Source of the DNA: Candidatus Moraniibacteriota bacterium
GTDB taxonomy: Bacteria; Patescibacteriota; Minisyncoccia; Moranbacterales; GCA-2747515
Assembly: GCA_023133275.1 (NCBI GenBank)
Contig: JAGLWU010000021.1
Location: 1,341-65,340, forward strand
Length of the DNA stretch: 64,000 bases
Direction: 5' to 3'
In this document: piece by piece, positions 35,222-62,831 of the stretch
How the letters are laid out: every line of letters starts with the position of its first letter
How positions within the stretch are numbered: the stretch's first letter is position 1
Position numbers and translations under genes: made by a program
The notes under the pieces: generated by a model
The model's input: only the letters and a program-made list of their open reading frames with translations
What the model was told of the DNA's origin: nothing
Databases searched by the model: none

Positions 35222-35256
35222 TTGACTTGACATAATAATAATAATATAAATTTACA
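35222..35256 (+). promoter_or_regulatory. Promoter cassette copy a: TTGACtTGACA + (AAT)4 + TATAAAT
   Basis: cTTGACAtaataataataatataaat. Same cassette at 44122, 52582, 57121 and 62421. Confidence 0.55.
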
Positions 35257-35300: not shown

Positions 35301-35645
35301 ATGAAAACATTTACTAAAACTGAATATTTCTTTCAGCAAGTTCTTTTGAGTATCAAAGAGTTAAAAAAAAGAACTTTTAGCCCAGGTATTAAAGTGACGC
35401 GTTTTTATGAAAAAAATAAATGTACAGGGATCTCGATGAATTTCATCGAGATAAATGGGAGGCATGAGGAAATAAAAGAAATTGAAGAAAGTATTGAAAT
35501 AAACTGTCCAATGAAATATTGGGAATGCAACAACGCATTTTTCAATTATCAAGGTTTTCATAATTCTCCAAATCGAAGTTATCCAAAATTTGGAAAAACC
35601 GAGGATGGAAGAAGTTGGGAATCACAACTTCAAGTTCCTATGTAG
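35301..35645 (+). CDS. Hypothetical small Cys-containing protein (cassette-driven ORF a)
   Basis: 114 aa. AGAGGA RBS-like sequence. Followed by the terminator at 35666-35707. Confidence 0.45.
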   Translation: MKTFTKTEYFFQQVLLSIKELKKRTFSPGIKVTRFYEKNKCTGISMNFIEINGRHEEIKEIEESIEINCPMKYWECNNAFFNYQGFHNSPNRSYPKFGKTEDGRSWESQLQVPM

Positions 35646-39889: not shown

Positions 39890-39964
39890 ATTTTTATATT
39901 TTGAAAAATTACCATTTTATTATAACACAAACTTTTTACAAAAATTTTTAAATTATTTCCAATT

Positions 39965-40125
39965 GTGCTCGCCGCACGGACTTTTCACCATTTAACTTTT
40001 TTCGAAATTCTGAAACATTTCCGTAATATCTCTTGTCATTCAAATTACCTGTCATTCTGAACGTAGTAAATTTATTGCAGATAAATTTATGTAGTGAAGA
40101 ATCCCCCACAGAGAATCATAAAACT
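39965..40125. repeat. Mosaic repeat element (modules A+C+E), copy R4
   Basis: GTGCTCGCCGCACGGAC. CCTGTCATTCTGAACG. TTATGTAGTGAAGAATCCCCCACAGAGAATCATAAAAC (module E, also at 55949-55985). Confidence 0.75.
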
Positions 40126-40148
40126 TTAAAATTAAACAAAAAGTGAAT

Positions 40149-44012: not shown

Positions 44013-44121
44013 ATTTAAATAAGTTTATTTTGATAAAAAAATTTTAAACGACTTATTTAAATAATAGTTTATAAATTGCCTTTTGTAAATTTATTTAAAG
44101 TTTTAAATCAAAAAATTCTAC

Positions 44122-44150
44122 TTGACATAATAATAATAATAATAATAATG
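44122..44150 (+). promoter_or_regulatory. Promoter cassette copy b: TTGACA + (AAT)7 + GTAAAC
   Basis: cTTGACAtaataataataataataataatgtaaac. Longest microsatellite of the five copies. Confidence 0.55.
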
Positions 44151-44235: not shown

Positions 44236-44373
44236 CATGAGAATGAAAGAAATGAGAGAATTAATCATTGTATTGCTTTGTCTATCAATACTATTCTTTT
44301 ATAAGGAAAACGATACTAATCCACCTAATACTACAACAAAAAAAATATTCAACTCTCGCACATCAAATAAGTA
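44236..44373 (+). CDS. 45-aa small secreted/membrane peptide (cassette-driven ORF b)
   Basis: MRMKEMRELIIVLLCLSILFFYKENDTNPPNTTTKKIFNSRTSNK. GGAGAAAG RBS. Terminator hairpin CCTAAAGCATA...TGCTTTAGG + T-run at 44380-44420. Confidence 0.5.
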
Positions 44374-44437
44374 AAACAAGCCTAAAGCATATAGATATTA
44401 TGCTTTAGGTTCTTTTTTATTAAAAAAGAAAAATTAT

Positions 44438-45400: not shown

Positions 45401-45429
45401 ATTTTATTTTATAAATTAAAAATTAAATT

Positions 45430-45640
45430 GTGCTCGCCGCACGGGCTTTTCTGAACAAGGGGTCATAACCCCTTGTTTAACCCCTACAAAATTATACGAC
45501 CCCCCGACCTGTCATTCCGAAAAATATATTTTCTTTCAGAGCGTAGTGATGAACTAGAAAATAATTTATCCGGAATCTATACTTTAAGATTAAAGAAAAT
45601 TTAAAATACAATACACTTCCTAAATTCCGGATAATTTTTT
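45430..45640. repeat. Mosaic repeat element (modules A+B1+C+D), copy R5
   Basis: GTGCTCGCCGCACGGGC. TTCTGAACAAGGGGTCATAACCCCTTGTTTAACC. CCTGTCATTCCGAAAAATA. ATTTATCCGGAATCTATACTTTAAGATTAAAGAAAATTTAAA. ATTCCGGATAA is the inverse of TTATCCGGAAT. Confidence 0.8.
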
Positions 45641-52515: not shown

Positions 52516-52581
52516 TGATAAAAAAATTTTAATATTCTTAACTAAGTTCTATAATAACATGAATTTTAAATGAAAAAAAGC

Positions 52582-52606
52582 TTGACATAATAATAATAAT
52601 AATATA
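52582..52606 (+). promoter_or_regulatory. Promoter cassette copy c: TTGACA + (AAT)5 + ATAAAA
   Basis: gcTTGACAtaataataataataatataaaatg. Confidence 0.55.
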
Positions 52607-52722: not shown

Positions 52723-53001
52723 ATGAGTGAAATAAAAAGAGTACTCGGAAATCCAGACATTATTTTCAGAAAAATGATAAAAGAAAAAGGACATGAGAGG
52801 CTTATAAAACTCGCCATTGTAACTTGGTGTCCTAATGAAGCTGCAAAACCAGTAGAATTTCAATACCAAATTGTAGGTGTCGCCGATGAAGAAAGAAATA
52901 GCATCTCTCTTAAAGGACGACTTGTTGATAATTATGATTTGGCAGAACATCAAGGAACCAAAGCCTTTAAGGCAATAGAATTAGCTCTGATCAATTCATA
53001 A
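52723..53001 (+). CDS. Hypothetical small protein (cassette-driven ORF c)
   Basis: 92 aa. AGGAG RBS 7 nt upstream. Two downstream hairpins. Preferred over the antisense ORF 52627..52953. Confidence 0.45.
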   Translation: MSEIKRVLGNPDIIFRKMIKEKGHERLIKLAIVTWCPNEAAKPVEFQYQIVGVADEERNSISLKGRLVDNYDLAEHQGTKAFKAIELALINS

Positions 53002-55798: not shown

Positions 55799-55828
55799 AT
55801 TGTTTATTTTAAAGTTTAAAAAATAATT

Positions 55829-55985
55829 GTGCTCGCCGCACGGGCTTTTCTGAAACAATGGATCATGACCCCTTGTTGAAATTCTAAAAATTTTCTGTCA
55901 TTTTTACTGTCATTCTGAACGGAATAATTTTTATAAAATAAAAATTATGTAGTGAAAAATCCCCCACAGAACACCACGAAACATT
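55829..55985. repeat. Mosaic repeat element (modules A+B1+C+E), copy R6
   Basis: GTGCTCGCCGCACGGGC. TTCTGAAACAATGGATCATGACCCCTTGTTGAAATTCTAAAA. TGTCATTCTGAACGG. TTATGTAGTGAAAAATCCCCCACAGAACACCACGAAAC. Confidence 0.8.
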
Positions 55986-56167: not shown

Positions 56168-57127
56168 TTAATTTTTAACATCCAAATAAGCCCTCCTAAC
56201 CGCCAAATTAATTTTTGTCGGTCGAAATTTAACATCCAAATAATTCTTAAGCTTTCGCAAAAATAAATAAATATTCAAATAAATTTTCCAAAAACCCTTA
56301 CCGTGTTTACGAAAAAATAAAATACCTGATAAAACTAACCAATAAATTTTCTGCGACTGATTTTCCTCGCTTTGCTCTTGATGATAAACTTTTGCACTCG
56401 GAACAATCAAATTTTTCAATTCAGCTTTTTTCACTCGCAAAGATAAATCTGCATCCTCATAATAAAGAAAAAAAAATTCATCAAATAATCCAACTTTCTC
56501 AAAAACTTTTTTACTAATCAACATCGCACAACCTGTTACATATTCTGTTTCTTCTACATCTGTGTAGGGAACGGTTTGAAACCGTTCCCTACCAAACACG
56601 ACTTGAAACCATTTCCTACCAAACAATGATATACAATCAAAATGTTCCGCCCTCATTTTCCACCAATTTATTTTTCCACCACAGAACCAAATATTTTTAT
56701 ATTTTAAATCTGAATAAATCACAGGACTTACTAATCCAATTTCACTTTCATCTTTAATAGAATCAATCAATTTTGAAATTGTGTTTTTTCGCACCAATGC
56801 ATCATTGTTCAAAAGAAAAACATAATCTGCGCTATTTTCAAAAGCAAATTTTATACCAACATTATTTCCCGCTCCGAATCCGAGATTTTTTTTGTTTTTA
56901 ATAAAATAAATTTTTGAAAAGTTTTTTTCACTTGAACAATGGGTTGCAACCCATTGTTCAGCTAGATTTAAAGAATTGTCAGTAGAATTATTATCCACTA
57001 AAATTATTTCTAAATTTTGATAATTTGAATCAACTACACTTTTAATAGTTTTTAGTAAATCTGTTCCGCCATTGTAATTTAGAATTATGACAAATATTTT
57101 TGGTTTTTTTGGAATTGTACTTGACAT
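56168..57127 (-). CDS. GT2-family glycosyltransferase carrying an in-frame palindrome/tandem-repeat insert
   Basis: KIFVIILNYNGGTDLLKTIKSVVDSNYQNLEIILVDNNSTDNS (GT2 N-terminus). DxD YYEDAD. N-terminus MSSTIPKKPK shared with 61255..62427. Confidence 0.8.
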   Translation of the reverse strand: MSSTIPKKPKIFVIILNYNGGTDLLKTIKSVVDSNYQNLEIILVDNNSTDNSLNLAEQWVATHCSSEKNFSKIYFIKNKKNLGFGAGNNVGIKFAFENSADYVFLLNNDALVRKNTISKLIDSIKDESEIGLVSPVIYSDLKYKNIWFCGGKINWWKMRAEHFDCISLFGRKWFQVVFGRERFQTVPYTDVEETEYVTGCAMLISKKVFEKVGLFDEFFFLYYEDADLSLRVKKAELKNLIVPSAKVYHQEQSEENQSQKIYWLVLSGILFFRKHGKGFWKIYLNIYLFLRKLKNYLDVKFRPTKINLAVRRAYLDVKN

Positions 57128-57145
57128 AATAATAATAATTTAAAC
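57101..57145 (+). promoter_or_regulatory. Promoter cassette copy d (TTGACA + (AAT)4 + TTTAAAC), overlapping the divergent GT2 start codon
   Basis: tggtttttttggaattgtacTTGACAtaataataataatttaaac. The GT2 ATG is the reverse complement of the CAT inside TTGACAT. Confidence 0.55.
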
Positions 57146-57197
57146 TTACTTATTGGTGATAAACTGAACATTAACAAAAACATTAACGGAGGTCATC

Positions 57198-57596
57198 ATG
57201 TCATCTGATTATCCAGAAATTAATCATAATCTCGGAGAAAACGGCTACGTCATCTACGGAGAAACATACTCCTCTTTCATTAAATATGAATATCAGCTAA
57301 TACTAGGTATGATATTTACTTGCTTTGTAAGAGAGGGTTCATGGTCATTGAAGGTGAAATGGTCAGATAAAATTATAGAACCTGGCCACATCTTAAATAC
57401 CACAGAAATCCCATTTATTGATGTATTATTTGATTATCCAGTTATTAATGATTTTCTTGGATCCCAACCTTATGTGCTTCATTGTTTTAAAAGTTATGGA
57501 TACAAAAAAATACTCAAAGAGATGGATAAATATCGATTGATCTCATATACTAACAAACCAACAATTATGACTATATATATATATCTCCTCACGTAG
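57198..57596 (+). CDS. Hypothetical protein (cassette-driven ORF d)
   Basis: 132 aa. GGAGG RBS 7 nt upstream. Confidence 0.45.
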   Translation: MSSDYPEINHNLGENGYVIYGETYSSFIKYEYQLILGMIFTCFVREGSWSLKVKWSDKIIEPGHILNTTEIPFIDVLFDYPVINDFLGSQPYVLHCFKSYGYKKILKEMDKYRLISYTNKPTIMTIYIYLLT

Positions 57597-60770: not shown

Positions 60771-60955
60771 ATTGTTTGTAATTTATTAAATTTCTTTGAA
60801 AAAAATTCTGCTTTATCATAAAACATTTTCGCAAACTATCTTTTGTAATTTTAACTAAGATGAATTTAAAAATATTTATCACACGATAAAAACAAAACTC
60901 GATAATTTCAAGCTTTTTTTATTCTACTATAAAAACTTAAGATTGTCATATTTTG

Positions 60956-61262
60956 TGCTCGCCGCACGGGCTTTTCAACAAAAGGTCATGGTCCCTTGTT
61001 GAAATTCTAAAACATTTTTGTTATCAAAATTTTAGGTTTGCCACTGGCAAACCCCTACAATTTTTTATCATTTAAGTTTCTTGTCATTCTAAACGGATTT
61101 ATTTTTTCTTTAGAAAAAATAAAGGAATGAAGATTCCCTCACGAAAAATCATTAAACTTTAAATTTACTAAAAGTATCAGAAAAACTTATCTAGATTCTT
61201 CACTTCATAAATTTTTTTACAAAAAATTTATTTCGTTCAGAATGACAGGAAATTTTAAAATT
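60956..61262. repeat. Mosaic repeat element (modules A+B1+F+C/C' inverted pair), copy R8
   Basis: GTGCTCGCCGCACGGGC. TTTTCAACAAAAGGTCATGGTCCCTTGTTGAAATTCTAAAA. GGTTTGCCACTGGCAAACC. TGTCATTCTAAACGG (61092) and inverse CGTTCAGAATGACAGG (61237). Confidence 0.8.
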
Positions 61263-62427
61263 TAATCTTCTCCTCCACAAACTCCAAAATTCTATCTTTA
61301 AAAACATCTTTATCAAACTTCTCCGCAGATTTTTTAATAATATTTTTATCATAAAAATTCTCATTATCCAAAAATCGTCGCACACCATCCGCCAAAACCT
61401 CAACCGTCGGAGCATTAAAAAACTCTCCCGTAACACCTTCCTGAACAATCTCCCTCGCTCCACCTTTCCGCAAAGCAATCACTGGCAATCTAGCATTCAA
61501 CGCCTCCACGCACACAATTCCAAAATCATCCTCAGACGGAAAAATAAACGCCCGAGAATTATTTAAAATTTTCTGTTTTACCTTTTCATCCACCCAACCT
61601 AAAATTTGAATATTTTTACCAGCAATTTTTTCTAAATGTTTTCTCTCCTCACCATCACCAATCACAATCAACGGCAAATTTAATTTATTAAAAGCTTTCA
61701 CAGTCAACACCACATTTTTATAAGTAGAAAGCCGAGAGATAATCATGAAAGGTTTTTTTGAGTTTTTTCCGCATCCTCCCTTTTCTGAACAAGGGGTCAT
61801 GACCCCTTGTTCATCAAAATAATTTTCTACAAATTCAACTGGTGGATAGATAATTTCTGAATCACGTCGATAATATTTAGAAATTCTCGCTTGAGTGTAT
61901 TTTGAATTTGCAATTAAAAAATCTGGTCGCTTACTCGCCTGTGCATCCCAAATCCGCAAATAACTTAAAATTTGTCGCACAATAAAATTACTTTTAAAAT
62001 TTTTATTTCGCTTTAGATATTTTTCATTTTCATCCCAAATAAAACGCATTGGCGAATGAATGTAAGCGATGTGTTTCGTGTCAACTCGAGTTACAATTCC
62101 CTTACTCCACGCTCCCGAACTGGAAATCACCAAATCAAAATCTCGCAAATTGTAAGTTTCCACTGCCGAAGCGTAAAAAGGTAAAAGCCACCGATGATGT
62201 TTTCGAATAAACTTTGGAAATTTTTGTAAAAAAGAAGTATGGATTTTTTTGTCTTCAAACATTTTCTTCATGTTTTTTTCGTCATAAAGCAAAGTGTAAA
62301 TCGGTGCTTCGGGAAATATTTCGCAAAGTGTTTCTAATACTTTTTCCGCCCCTCCTTGATAAATTAAAAAATCATGAACAAGAGCAATTTTTAAGTTTTT
62401 AGTTTTTTTTGGATTTGTACTTGACAT
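61255..62427 (-). CDS. GT4-family (glycosyl transferase group 1) glycosyltransferase with in-frame B1-repeat insertion
   Basis: Start at MSSTNPKKTKNLKIALVHDF (internal to the longer ORF). GT4 C-domain (AFIFPSEDDFGIVCVEAL). Bases 61779-61813 match repeat module B1 and encode EQGVMTPCSEKGGCG. Confidence 0.75.
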   Translation of the reverse strand: MSSTNPKKTKNLKIALVHDFLIYQGGAEKVLETLCEIFPEAPIYTLLYDEKNMKKMFEDKKIHTSFLQKFPKFIRKHHRWLLPFYASAVETYNLRDFDLVISSSGAWSKGIVTRVDTKHIAYIHSPMRFIWDENEKYLKRNKNFKSNFIVRQILSYLRIWDAQASKRPDFLIANSKYTQARISKYYRRDSEIIYPPVEFVENYFDEQGVMTPCSEKGGCGKNSKKPFMIISRLSTYKNVVLTVKAFNKLNLPLIVIGDGEERKHLEKIAGKNIQILGWVDEKVKQKILNNSRAFIFPSEDDFGIVCVEALNARLPVIALRKGGAREIVQEGVTGEFFNAPTVEVLADGVRRFLDNENFYDKNIIKKSAEKFDKDVFKDRILEFVEEKIKF

Positions 62428-62446
62428 AATAATAATATAAAATTCA
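62401..62446 (+). promoter_or_regulatory. Promoter cassette copy e (TTGACA + (AAT)3 + ATAAAA), overlapping the divergent GT4 start codon
   Basis: agtttttttttggatttgtacTTGACAtaataataatataaaattc. Confidence 0.55.
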
Positions 62447-62512
62447 ATATTAGCTAACTCCTCACAAAATTGAGGAAAATTGTTCATTTAAAGAAAGAGG
62501 GAGATATAAAAA

Positions 62513-62749
62513 ATGGAATTATTAAAAGAAACTATAACTAATACCTATTGGGAATCAGGAAAAAAGGGATTTATCGCTTATTTGTTCACATCTTTCAGCA
62601 TTATATTTCCGATTGTAATATGGTTAATTTCTTCTGAAATTTCTTCTGCAGAATCCTGTGGTATAGCGGGAATATCACTTGGCATTGGTTTGCTTTTATC
62701 CGCAACAATTATAGAGCAAAATATGTACAAAAAAGCGAAAGCTGACTGA
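62513..62749 (+). CDS. Small 2-TM membrane protein (cassette-driven ORF e)
   Basis: 78 aa. GAGGGAG RBS. Terminator GGCTATCTT-cctgc-AAGATAGCC + GTTTTTATTTTT at 62797-62831. Confidence 0.5.
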   Translation: MELLKETITNTYWESGKKGFIAYLFTSFSIIFPIVIWLISSEISSAESCGIAGISLGIGLLLSATIIEQNMYKKAKAD

Positions 62750-62796: not shown

Positions 62797-62831
62797 GGCT
62801 ATCTTCCTGCAAGATAGCCGTTTTTATTTTT
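62797..62831 (+). terminator. Rho-independent terminator
   Basis: 9-bp stem, 5-nt loop, then a T-run. Confidence 0.7.

What the first reader, a model, noticed from the sequence alone, without database searches (positions are those of the whole stretch)
57101..57145. Divergent GT2 and GT4 genes share an identical 5' module (MSST.PKK.K) that overlaps the promoter cassette
Two roughly 45-bp blocks are near-identical: 57101-57145 and 62401-62446 (tttttttgga(a/t)ttgtacTTGACAtaataataat). On the minus strand they encode the first 10 residues of two otherwise different glycosyltransferases (MSSTIPKKPK of GT2, MSSTNPKKTK of GT4). The start codon is the reverse complement of the CAT inside TTGACAT. On the plus strand the same bases form the -35 box of the small-ORF cassette. 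A portable bidirectional 5' module fused onto different genes suggests cassette-mediated promoter/5' exchange. Both ORF-finder N-terminal extensions are therefore artefacts.
Basis: seen in the sequence. Interest (0 to 1): 0.65.

Follow-up and report, generated by a model that had tools for sequence, protein, structure and literature searches.

The report
Shared promoter-plus-start-codon block, two glycosyltransferases
Two unrelated sugar-transferase genes in an uncultured Moranbacteria (CPR) genome begin inside the -35 box of a repeated outward-facing promoter, and their first ten codons look alike because a roughly 20-base patch was copied from one gene head to the other; this is a tidy case of genome compaction plus short-tract gene conversion, not a mobile 5' module.

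Summary
Window 57097-57137 and 62397-62437 match at 38 of 41 bases. The complement encodes MSSTIPKKPK (GT2) and MSSTNPKKTK (GT4), and each ATG is the complement of CAT in TTGACAT.

The block has two layers. The first is a 17-nt core, CTTGACATAATAATAAT. It occurs five times in the window, always on the + strand, each time heading a small opposite-strand ORF with a Shine-Dalgarno (SD) motif. Orthologous loci keep the TTGACA and mostly show canonical TTGACA-N17-TATAAT/TAAAAT, so it is the -35 box of a sigma70-type promoter.

The second layer is about 20 further bases shared only by the two GT copies. Each gene's Lys-rich N-terminal tail and divergent promoter is ancestral at its own locus. In the source genome, all seven derived substitutions in GT2 codons 3-8 match GT4, while the flanks stay GT2-like. 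That points to short-tract gene conversion from GT4 to GT2, not a portable cassette or a segmental duplication.

The MSST start of GT4 is supported. Its 20-codon extension is an artefact. GT2 has no extension.

In the source genome both GT-linked promoters have off-optimal spacers (N14, N11) made of (TAA)n. Interest is modest.

The parts
57097..57137 (+). Shared block, GT2 copy. It comprises the promoter-upstream bases (complement of GT2 codons 1-10), the -35 hexamer and the first (TAA) units.
   Evidence: D15
62397..62437 (+). Shared block, GT4 copy. It matches the GT2 copy at 38 of 41 bases.
   Evidence: D15
57121..57126 (+). TTGACA, the -35 hexamer of the promoter facing small ORF 57198. 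CAT at 57125-57127 is the complement of the GT2 start codon.
   Evidence: TTGACA is kept at this locus in 6 genomes, including L006, where the ATG has moved.
62421..62426 (+). TTGACA, the -35 hexamer of the promoter facing small ORF 62513. CAT at 62425-62427 is the complement of the GT4 start codon.
57127..57146 (+). (TAA)4-T spacer of 14 nt, then TAAACT, the best -10 candidate. The spacing is sub-optimal. The same N14 is found in L005 and L007.
62427..62443 (+). Spacer of 11 nt, (TAA)3-TA, then TAAAAT. This is a 6-nt deletion relative to L008, which has N17. The alternative reading TTGTAC(62415-62420)-N17-TAAAAT scores 7.9.
57104..57121 (-). Inferred conversion tract, GT2 codons 3-8 (AGT ACA ATT CCA AAA AAA). 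It differs at 7-9 of 18 positions from GT2 orthologues and at 1 of 18 from the source GT4.
56168..57127 (-). GT2-family glycosyltransferase gene, 319 aa, starting MSSTIPKKPK. It has no SD.
61255..62427 (-). GT4-family glycosyltransferase gene, 390 aa, starting MSSTNPKKTK. It has no SD.
62428..62487 (-). Spurious 20-codon N-terminal extension of GT4 (the 410-aa call). It lies antisense to the 5' leader of the small ORF.
   Evidence: in-frame TAA in L008
57198..57596 (+). Small divergent ORF of 132 aa with SD GGAGGT at 57188-57193. It is an ORFan, and NCBI calls it 95 aa.
62513..62749 (+). Small divergent ORF of 78 aa, a hydrophobic protein, with SD GAGGGAG at 62497-62503 and a terminator hairpin at 62797-62819. 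Its only homologue is the L008 orthologue (71% identity).
35226..35242 (+). Promoter core copy heading the 114-aa ORF 35301-35645.
44121..44137 (+). Promoter core copy with (TAA)7, heading the 45-aa ORF 44237-44374.
52581..52597 (+). Promoter core copy with canonical TTGACA-N17-TAAAAT, heading the 92-aa ORF 52723-53001.

Best explanation
The block is the overlap of two things. The first is a sigma70-type promoter of a small family. Its core, CTTGACA(TAA)n, has five exact copies in 64 kb. All are on the + strand, and each faces a small SD-led ORF of no known family that runs opposite to its neighbours. The second is the 5' end of the neighbouring core gene on the other strand.

At the GT2 and GT4 loci the intergenic space is so short that the gene's ATG is the complement of CAT in TTGACAT, so codons 2-3 (TCA AGT) are the -35 hexamer read backwards. 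This arrangement is ancestral at each locus and recurs at unrelated genes in relatives. The Lys-rich N-terminal tails are also ancestral to each family.

What is special to the source genome is that about 18-25 nt just beyond the -35 box (GT2 codons 3-8) were overwritten with the GT4 sequence. The likely cause is a non-reciprocal transfer, either short-tract gene conversion or template switching, seeded by the identical 17-nt promoter core. That transfer produced the 38/41 identity.

Shown: the repeat, the start codons, conservation of TTGACA, canonical N17 promoters in relatives, and the cluster of donor-matching substitutions. Inferred: promoter activity, the conversion mechanism and its direction.
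For: The core 17-mer is found 5 times exactly and is otherwise at chance level. Each copy lies between a minus-strand gene head and a small plus-strand ORF with an SD.

TTGACA is retained at the GT2 locus in 6 genomes. In L006 the ATG is lost there, yet TTGACA-N17-TATAGT remains. Eight of 15 copies score 12.4 or more as TTGACA-N17/18-TAAAAT/TATAAT. No comparable promoter exists in the GT direction.

Orthologue N-termini show each tail is inherited. GT4: MSSTNLKKSK, MKTTNSKKTK, MSNINSKKIK. GT2: MSSDNLQNPK, MSSVIFKNPK, MSSFLKPKNKK.

For conversion, consider CDS nt 7-24. The source GT2 differs from L007/L005 GT2 at 9 and 7 of 18 sites but from the source GT4 at 1 of 18. All 7 sites that differ from L005 equal GT4, which has probability about (1/3)^7 = 5e-4 if the substitutions were independent. 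The flanks differ from orthologues at only 3-5 sites of 36-51. In relatives, GT2 and GT4 of the same genome differ at 7-8 of 18 in this tract.

The GT4 tract is inherited within the GT4 lineage (1/18 from L008; by my reading of the sequences, 3/18 from L005/L006/L126), which gives the direction GT4 to GT2. The same sequence appears in four independent assemblies.
Against: The tract is very short, and homology on its far side is only an A-run. One internal mismatch (A/T at 57114) needs a later mutation or a mosaic tract. Polarity rests on few orthologues, and on the assumption that L007 and L008 (same sample) are one genome. A-rich codons after ATG are general in this genome, so part of the identity (AAAAAAA) is compositional. 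In the source genome both GT-linked promoters have non-canonical spacers (N14, N11), so their activity is doubtful. No transcription data exist. A third copy outside the window could have been the donor.
Confidence: 0.68

Rival explanations
1. Portable bidirectional 5' module: a mobile promoter/5'-CDS cassette is grafted onto different genes, supplying both their start codon and a divergent promoter.
For: The promoter core is dispersed at five sites. A copy sits between atpH and atpA in a relative (L057). The ORFs in the slots are unrelated between genomes. The two GT heads are nearly identical.
Against: The N-terminal tails and the TTGACA/ATG overlap are ancestral at each locus. The extra 20 nt are absent from the other three copies. 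No terminal repeats, target duplications or consistent boundaries were found. No recombinase gene was seen near the two GT loci; only the ORFs next to the motif copies were scanned against Pfam. The extended pattern has no other hit. No promoter was found in the GT direction.
Confidence: 0.08
2. Convergence under selection: the two heads became alike independently. The selected feature would be either the peptide MSSTxPKKxK, an unstructured A-rich 5' CDS for SD-less initiation, or the promoter-upstream (UP-like) bases.
For: Both families ancestrally have Lys-rich tails. Many genes here start ATGAAAAAA, and core genes lack an SD.
Against: Seven of seven derived changes match the paralogue exactly, including synonymous-type positions (AGC to AGT). 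Relatives under the same constraints keep dissimilar heads (7-8 of 18 differences). The other three promoter copies have A-rich, not T-rich, upstream bases.
Confidence: 0.1
3. Repeat-tuned overlapping divergent promoters: the (TAA)n tract is a slippage-prone spacer. Its length would switch or tune the small-ORF promoter and possibly, on the other strand, GT expression, as with TA repeats at Haemophilus hifA/hifB. This reading is compatible with the conversion event.
For: Spacers from TTGACA to the TAAAAT-like hexamer are 11, 14, 14, 17 and 23 in the source, and 14, 14, 17 (L005, L007, L057) and 20 (L125) in relatives, all equal to 2 mod 3. The source GT4 copy differs from L008 by a 6-nt indel. 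L125 has (GAT)5 at the same place. (TAA) runs of 4 or more number 5, against 0.12 expected, and 4 of the 5 lie in these promoters.
Against: The repeats are short (3-7 units). The GT2-locus N14 is identical in three diverged genomes and in four assemblies of the source population. L127 has N18 at the GT2 locus, which does not fit the 2 mod 3 pattern. No read-level polymorphism was examined, and no expression data exist.
Confidence: 0.12
4. Chance similarity, or a segmental duplication that includes the flanks.
For: The genome is AT-rich (30% GC). The two copies are exactly 5300 nt apart.
Against: Zero of 100 shuffles give such a match. The flanks do not align. The genes belong to different Pfam families.
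Confidence: 0.01

Closest known systems
Compact divergent gene pairs in which a promoter element overlaps the neighbour's coding start
   Same: A -35 hexamer of one transcription unit lies on top of the start codon of the divergent gene. The intergenic space is about 70-85 nt between the two ATGs.
   Different: Here the overlap is exact and recurrent: ATGTCAA is the complement of TTGACAT at GT2, GT4, a U32 peptidase and another GT4 in relatives. The overlapped genes have no SD and no recognisable promoter of their own.
Ectopic short-tract gene conversion between dispersed repeats (concerted evolution of repeated promoter or intergenic elements in bacteria)
   Same: There is a cluster of substitutions that all match a paralogous donor. 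The flanks are unaffected, and an identical core serves as the homology anchor.
   Different: The tract is only about 18-25 nt and crosses from a promoter into the coding sequence of two non-homologous genes, giving them the same first ten residues.
Simple-sequence-repeat promoters: Haemophilus influenzae hifA/hifB (TA)n between -35 and -10 of overlapping divergent promoters; Mycoplasma gallisepticum vlhA (GAA)n upstream repeats, active at 12 units (PMC6258824)
   Same: A short tandem repeat occupies the promoter, and the repeat number differs between copies. Only some copies have the canonical spacing.
   Different: The repeat is a trinucleotide inside the spacer with only 3-7 units. No within-population variation was seen at the one locus that could be checked, and the downstream genes are unrelated ORFans rather than a surface-antigen family. 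Phase variation was not demonstrated. The hif comparison is from my own knowledge.
Phage 'morons' (autonomous promoter-ORF-terminator units inserted between genes)
   Same: Each small ORF has its own strong promoter, its own SD and often a terminator hairpin. It sits in the opposite orientation between conserved genes, and in one relative between atpH and atpA.
   Different: The units are chromosomal in a CPR bacterium. There are no PHROG or PADLOC hits, and the promoter rather than the ORF is the conserved part at orthologous slots.

Membership tests
Sigma70-type promoter | -35 hexamer close to TTGACA | tested here: met
   A perfect TTGACA is present in all 5 window copies and in 10 related copies.
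Sigma70-type promoter | -10 hexamer (TATAAT-like) 17 +/- 1 nt downstream of the -35 | tested here: inconclusive
   Met in 8 of 15 copies (52582, L006 x2, L008, L057, L124, L126, L127). Not met at the two copies of the finding (N14 to TAAACT; N11 to TAAAAT, with the alternative TTGTAC-N17-TAAAAT).
Sigma70-type promoter | Transcription start about 7 nt after the -10 hexamer | not testable with these tools
   No transcript data are available.
Ectopic gene conversion | Clustered derived substitutions that all match a paralogous donor, with orthologue-like flanks | tested here: met
   Seven of 7 derived sites in CDS nt 7-24 equal GT4, and the flanks differ at 3-5 sites of 36-51.
Ectopic gene conversion | The donor state is ancestral in the donor lineage and absent from the recipient's orthologues | tested here: met
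   GT4 orthologues L008, L005, L006 and L126 carry ACAAAT(T/C)(C/T)AAAAAAA. GT2 orthologues L005, L007, L125 and L127 do not.
Mobile cassette (IS, MITE or integron-like) | Common boundaries, terminal repeats or target-site duplication, and an associated recombinase | tested here: not met
   The copies share only the 17-25 nt core. No flanking inverted or direct repeats were found. No recombinase turned up among the ORFs scanned next to the motif copies.
SSR-mediated phase-variable promoter | Tandem repeat between -35 and -10 | tested here: met
   (TAA)3-7 lies directly after TTGACA.
SSR-mediated phase-variable promoter | Repeat-number polymorphism within a population or between close strains at the same locus | tested here: inconclusive
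   At the GT2 locus the count is identical in 4 assemblies and 3 genomes. At the GT4 locus there is a 6-nt indel against L008. Reads were not examined.
Glycosyltransferase family 2 / family 4 | Pfam domain above the gathering score | tested here: met
   PF00535 scored 81.5 bits for GT2. PF00534 scored 94.5 bits and PF13439 37.4 bits for GT4.

The most novel reading that the evidence does not exclude
In this SD-poor CPR lineage the core genes are expressed without SD leaders, while a separate class of tiny, fast-turning-over ORFs carries canonical TTGACA-N17-TATAAT promoters and strong SDs. On this reading, the promoters of that class overlap the starts (and presumably the unseen promoters) of core genes such as GT2 and GT4. 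Their (TAA)n spacers change in 3-nt steps, and copies homogenise one another by conversion. The five loci would then form a repeat-tuned, mutually exclusive divergent-promoter system that couples expression of cell-envelope glycosyltransferases to that of variable small proteins.
Probability: 0.12. Interest if true: 0.65.

Novelty: new member of a known kind. Interest (0 to 1): 0.33.

Why it matters
It corrects a gene start: GT4 is 390 aa, not 410 aa. It shows that in a compact CPR genome a promoter hexamer can dictate the second and third codons of the neighbouring gene (Met-Ser-Ser/Asn/Arg). It also documents a very short conversion tract that gave two non-homologous enzymes the same first ten residues, which is a caution against reading shared N-termini as shared signals or mobile modules. 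The surrounding pattern may deserve its own study, because almost nothing is known experimentally about transcription and translation signals in Patescibacteria. That pattern is SD-led ORFan cassettes with canonical promoters in a genome whose core genes lack an SD, with (TAA)n spacers of varying length.

Tried and rejected
1. A genome-contig scan for the 17-mer gave 115 or more scattered hits in unrelated AT-rich taxa. It was therefore not useful for a genome-wide census.

2. A metagenome scan for the extended module (ATTATGTCAAGTACAAWTCYAAAAAAA) gave 0 hits. A second scan, with a conserved GT2 5' CDS word, gave 73 unrelated hits and no orthologue.

3. Rfam on the whole window gave no family, so there is no known riboswitch or sRNA here.

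4. Pfam, PHROGs and PADLOC on the small ORFs gave nothing. The homologue searches showed they are ORFans.

5. A search for a promoter in the GT direction gave only weak, non-conserved candidates. Reading the (TTA)n tract as a -10 for leaderless GT mRNAs does not fit the distances (1 or 4 nt to the ATG in the source).

6. Reading TGACATAAT as an extended -10 box was considered and dropped. Relatives place a canonical -10 box 17 nt downstream of TTGACA.

7. Looking up alternative assemblies of the GT4 locus, to see repeat-length variation, failed.

Full report
**Source and setting.** The window is part of a 77.7-kb metagenomic scaffold (ENA ERZ23498525, scaffold_107) of a Candidatus Moranbacteria (Patescibacteria/CPR) population. 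It has about 30% GC, and most genes are on the minus strand. ORF 56168-57127 is a GT2-family glycosyltransferase. ORF 61255-62427/62487 is a GT4-family enzyme.

**Observation.** The two blocks are real.
- 57105-57136 and 62405-62436 differ at one base. No shuffle of the window gives such a pair.
- The repeat finder extends the pair to 57097-57137 / 62397-62437, 41 nt at 93% identity (D15). Beyond that the flanks do not align, so this is not a segmental duplication.
- On the minus strand the blocks encode MSSTIPKKPK and MSSTNPKKTK. Each ATG is the complement of CAT in TTGACAT.
- The GT2 block is identical in four independent assemblies.
- Only GT4 has an ORF-finder extension (62487 start, 410 aa). 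The GT2 ORF already begins at the MSST codon.

**Two layers in the block.**
- The right-hand 17 nt, CTTGACATAATAATAAT, occur five times exactly in the window (35226, 44121, 52581, 57120, 62420), all on the + strand. Looser matches are at chance level.
- Each copy lies in a short divergent intergenic region. To the left is the head of a minus-strand core gene. To the right is a small + strand ORF (114, 45, 92, 132 and 78 aa) with a clear SD. Three are followed by an evident hairpin, and the promoter/terminator scan confirmed the one after 62513.
- The left-hand ~20 nt (TTTTTTTGGAWTTGTA) are shared only by the two GT copies. The other three copies have A-rich sequence there.

**What the core is.** I fetched orthologous loci from related Moranbacteria (L005-L008 and L124-L127).
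- At the GT2 locus TTGACA is present in all six genomes. In L006 the ATG inside it has mutated and the gene starts three codons later (MSKSK). TTGACA is still there, followed by a 17-nt spacer and TATAGT.
- At the GT4 locus, L008, L124, L126 and L006 have TTGACA-N17-TAAAAT/TATAAT/TATACT. In L006 and L126 the hexamer lies 8 nt upstream of the ATG instead of overlapping it.
- With a simple sigma70 weight-matrix score, 8 of 15 copies reach 12.4 or more with TTGACA as the -35 box. No comparable or conserved promoter is found in the GT direction in any of the 12 loci.

The core is therefore best read as the -35 hexamer plus the start of the spacer of a promoter that fires towards the small ORF. The same start-codon-inside-TTGACAT arrangement, with a perfect N17 TATAAT, occurs at a U32 peptidase gene (L125:888) and at another GT4 gene (L124:147) in relatives. 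It is a recurrent way of packing divergent genes in this clade, not a property of one module.

**Start codons.** GT4 orthologues begin MSSTNLKKSK, MKTTNSKKTK/IK, MSNINSKKIK or MKKTKNLK, then the conserved KIALVHDF. NCBI annotates the source protein as 390 aa. In L008 the upstream reading frame is closed by an in-frame TAA. The 410-aa start lies 25 nt from the small ORF's ATG. GT2 orthologues begin MSSDNLQNPK, MSSVIFKNPK, MSSFLKPKNKK or MSRVLNSKTKK, then the IFVIILNYNGG strand. There is no alternative start codon between MSST and that strand. The MSST starts are therefore well supported. Both Lys-rich tails are inherited within each family rather than grafted on.

**Why the two heads are nearly identical here.** I compared CDS nucleotides 7-24.

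| Comparison | Differences in nt 7-24 |
|---|---|
| Source GT2 vs L007 GT2 | 9 of 18 |
| Source GT2 vs L005 GT2 | 7 of 18 |
| Source GT2 vs source GT4 | 1 of 18 |
| GT2 vs GT4 within the same relative genome | 7-8 of 18 |

- The source GT2 tract is AGT ACA ATT CCA AAA AAA.
- All seven sites that differ from L005 carry the GT4 base. The probability is roughly (1/3)^7, about 5e-4, if they arose independently.
- The flanks are orthologue-like. Upstream, the GT2-specific TTTAAA plus four TTA units are kept. Downstream, there are only 3-4 differences in 51 nt.
- The GT4 tract is inherited in the GT4 lineage: 1/18 from L008 and, by my count on the sequences, 3/18 from L005/L006/L126.

The simplest account is a non-reciprocal transfer of about 18-25 nt from the GT4 head to the GT2 head in the source lineage, anchored by the identical promoter core. 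Caveats:
- The tract is very short.
- The far-side homology is only an A-run.
- One internal A/T mismatch remains (57114).
- Few orthologues polarise the change.
- A-rich codons after ATG are common in this genome, so some of the identity is compositional.

**Promoter state in the source genome.** The spacer after TTGACA is made of TAA units whose number differs between copies: 4, 7, 5, 4 and 3.
- The distance to the TAAAAT-like hexamer is 14, 23, 17, 14 and 11 nt. In relatives it is 14, 14, 17 (L005, L007, L057) and 20 (L125). All of these equal 2 mod 3. L127, at the GT2 locus, is the exception with N18.
- The source GT4 copy has lost 6 nt relative to L008. L125 has (GAT)5 in the same place.
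- (TAA) runs of four or more units number 5 in the window, against 0.12 expected. Four of the five are in these promoters.

This looks like slippage in 3-nt steps. It resembles repeat-tuned promoters: Haemophilus hif, from my own knowledge, and Mycoplasma gallisepticum vlhA with GAA repeats (PMC6258824). Against frequent switching, N14 at the GT2 locus is identical in three diverged genomes and four assemblies. I therefore treat phase variation as an unproven minority reading. By sigma70 rules both GT-linked promoters of the source look weak (best scores 5.1 and about 8).

**Context noticed on the way.**
- None of about 45 core genes in the window has an SD, whereas all five small ORFs behind the promoter core do. 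The same split holds in relatives.
- The small ORFs are unrelated to each other and between genomes at the same slot, except 62513 and its L008 orthologue.
- They have no Pfam, PHROG or PADLOC match and essentially no homologues.
- Together they look like autonomous, moron-like promoter-SD-ORF-terminator units.
- A separate palindromic repeat (GAACAAGGGGTCATGACCCCTTGTTC) is found in intergenic DNA and, in frame, inside both GT genes (peptides QGVMTPCS / QWVATHCS).

**Verdict.** It is wrong on mechanism: there is no portable cassette, no evidence of bidirectionality, and no GT2 extension. The case combines a known kind of genome compaction with a known kind of event, ectopic short-tract conversion, in a poorly studied phylum. 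Interest is modest. The SD-led ORFan cassettes and their (TAA)n spacers are the more promising lead.

Noticed in passing
window 45446-45477, 55846-55877, 60969-61000 (intergenic); 56927-56958 (inside GT2); 61780-61811 (inside GT4): The perfect palindrome GAACAAGGGGTCATGACCCCTTGTTC is dispersed in intergenic DNA and also inserted in frame in both glycosyltransferase genes, where it encodes ..EQGVMTPCS.. / ..EQWVATHCS... Orthologues carry it at variable positions and copy numbers (P0003 has two). It resembles Rickettsia palindromic elements inserted in protein-coding genes.
   Followed up: partly
whole window; small ORFs at 35301, 44237, 52723, 57198, 62513: Core genes (about 45, including L25, DnaJ, SecDF, GT2 and GT4) have no Shine-Dalgarno motif. 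All five small ORFs behind the CTTGACA(TAA)n promoter have a strong one. The same split is seen in relatives (L005, L006, L124, L125, L127), including a 4-gene SD-led island at L005:4081-6056.
   Followed up: partly
window 35233, 44128, 52588, 57127, 62427: The (TAA)n tracts (n = 4, 7, 5, 4, 3) form the promoter spacer, and only the 52582 copy has the canonical 17-nt spacing. Spacers in the source are all 2 mod 3. (TAA) runs of 4 or more are about 40-fold enriched in the window and sit almost only in these promoters.
   Followed up: partly
L057:3888-4176 (GCA_942490825.1, contig CALNYG010000015.1): In a relative, a copy of the promoter core (TTGACA-N17-TAAAAT) with an SD-led 68-aa ORF sits in reverse orientation between atpH and atpA of the ATP synthase operon.
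   Followed up: no
L125:888 and L124:147: Unrelated genes (a U32 peptidase and another GT4) also start with ATGTCAA, whose complement is the -35 box of a perfect TTGACA-N17-TATAAT divergent promoter. The start-codon/-35 overlap is therefore a recurrent architecture in the clade.
   Followed up: partly
window 39943-39990, 45408-45455, 55807-55854, 60933-60980; 40033-40127, 55891-55985, inverted at 61194-61258: There are further dispersed intergenic repeat families: TTGTGCTCGCCGCACGGGCTTTTC next to the palindrome, and a 60-95-nt CTGTCATTCTGAACG...GTAGTGAAGAATCCCCCACAGA element. One copy of the latter overlaps the 3' end of GT4.
   Followed up: no
window 57203-57236 and 57428-57461: There is an internal 34-nt direct repeat (79% identity) inside the 132-aa ORFan next to GT2 (SDYPEINHNLGE / FDYPVINDFLGS). 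NCBI annotates this ORF as only 95 aa.
   Followed up: no
window 35222-35232: The 35227 promoter copy has a 5-nt duplication, TTGACTTGACA. The upstream TTGACT restores a 17-nt spacing to TATAAA, which may compensate for the short (TAA)4 spacer.
   Followed up: no
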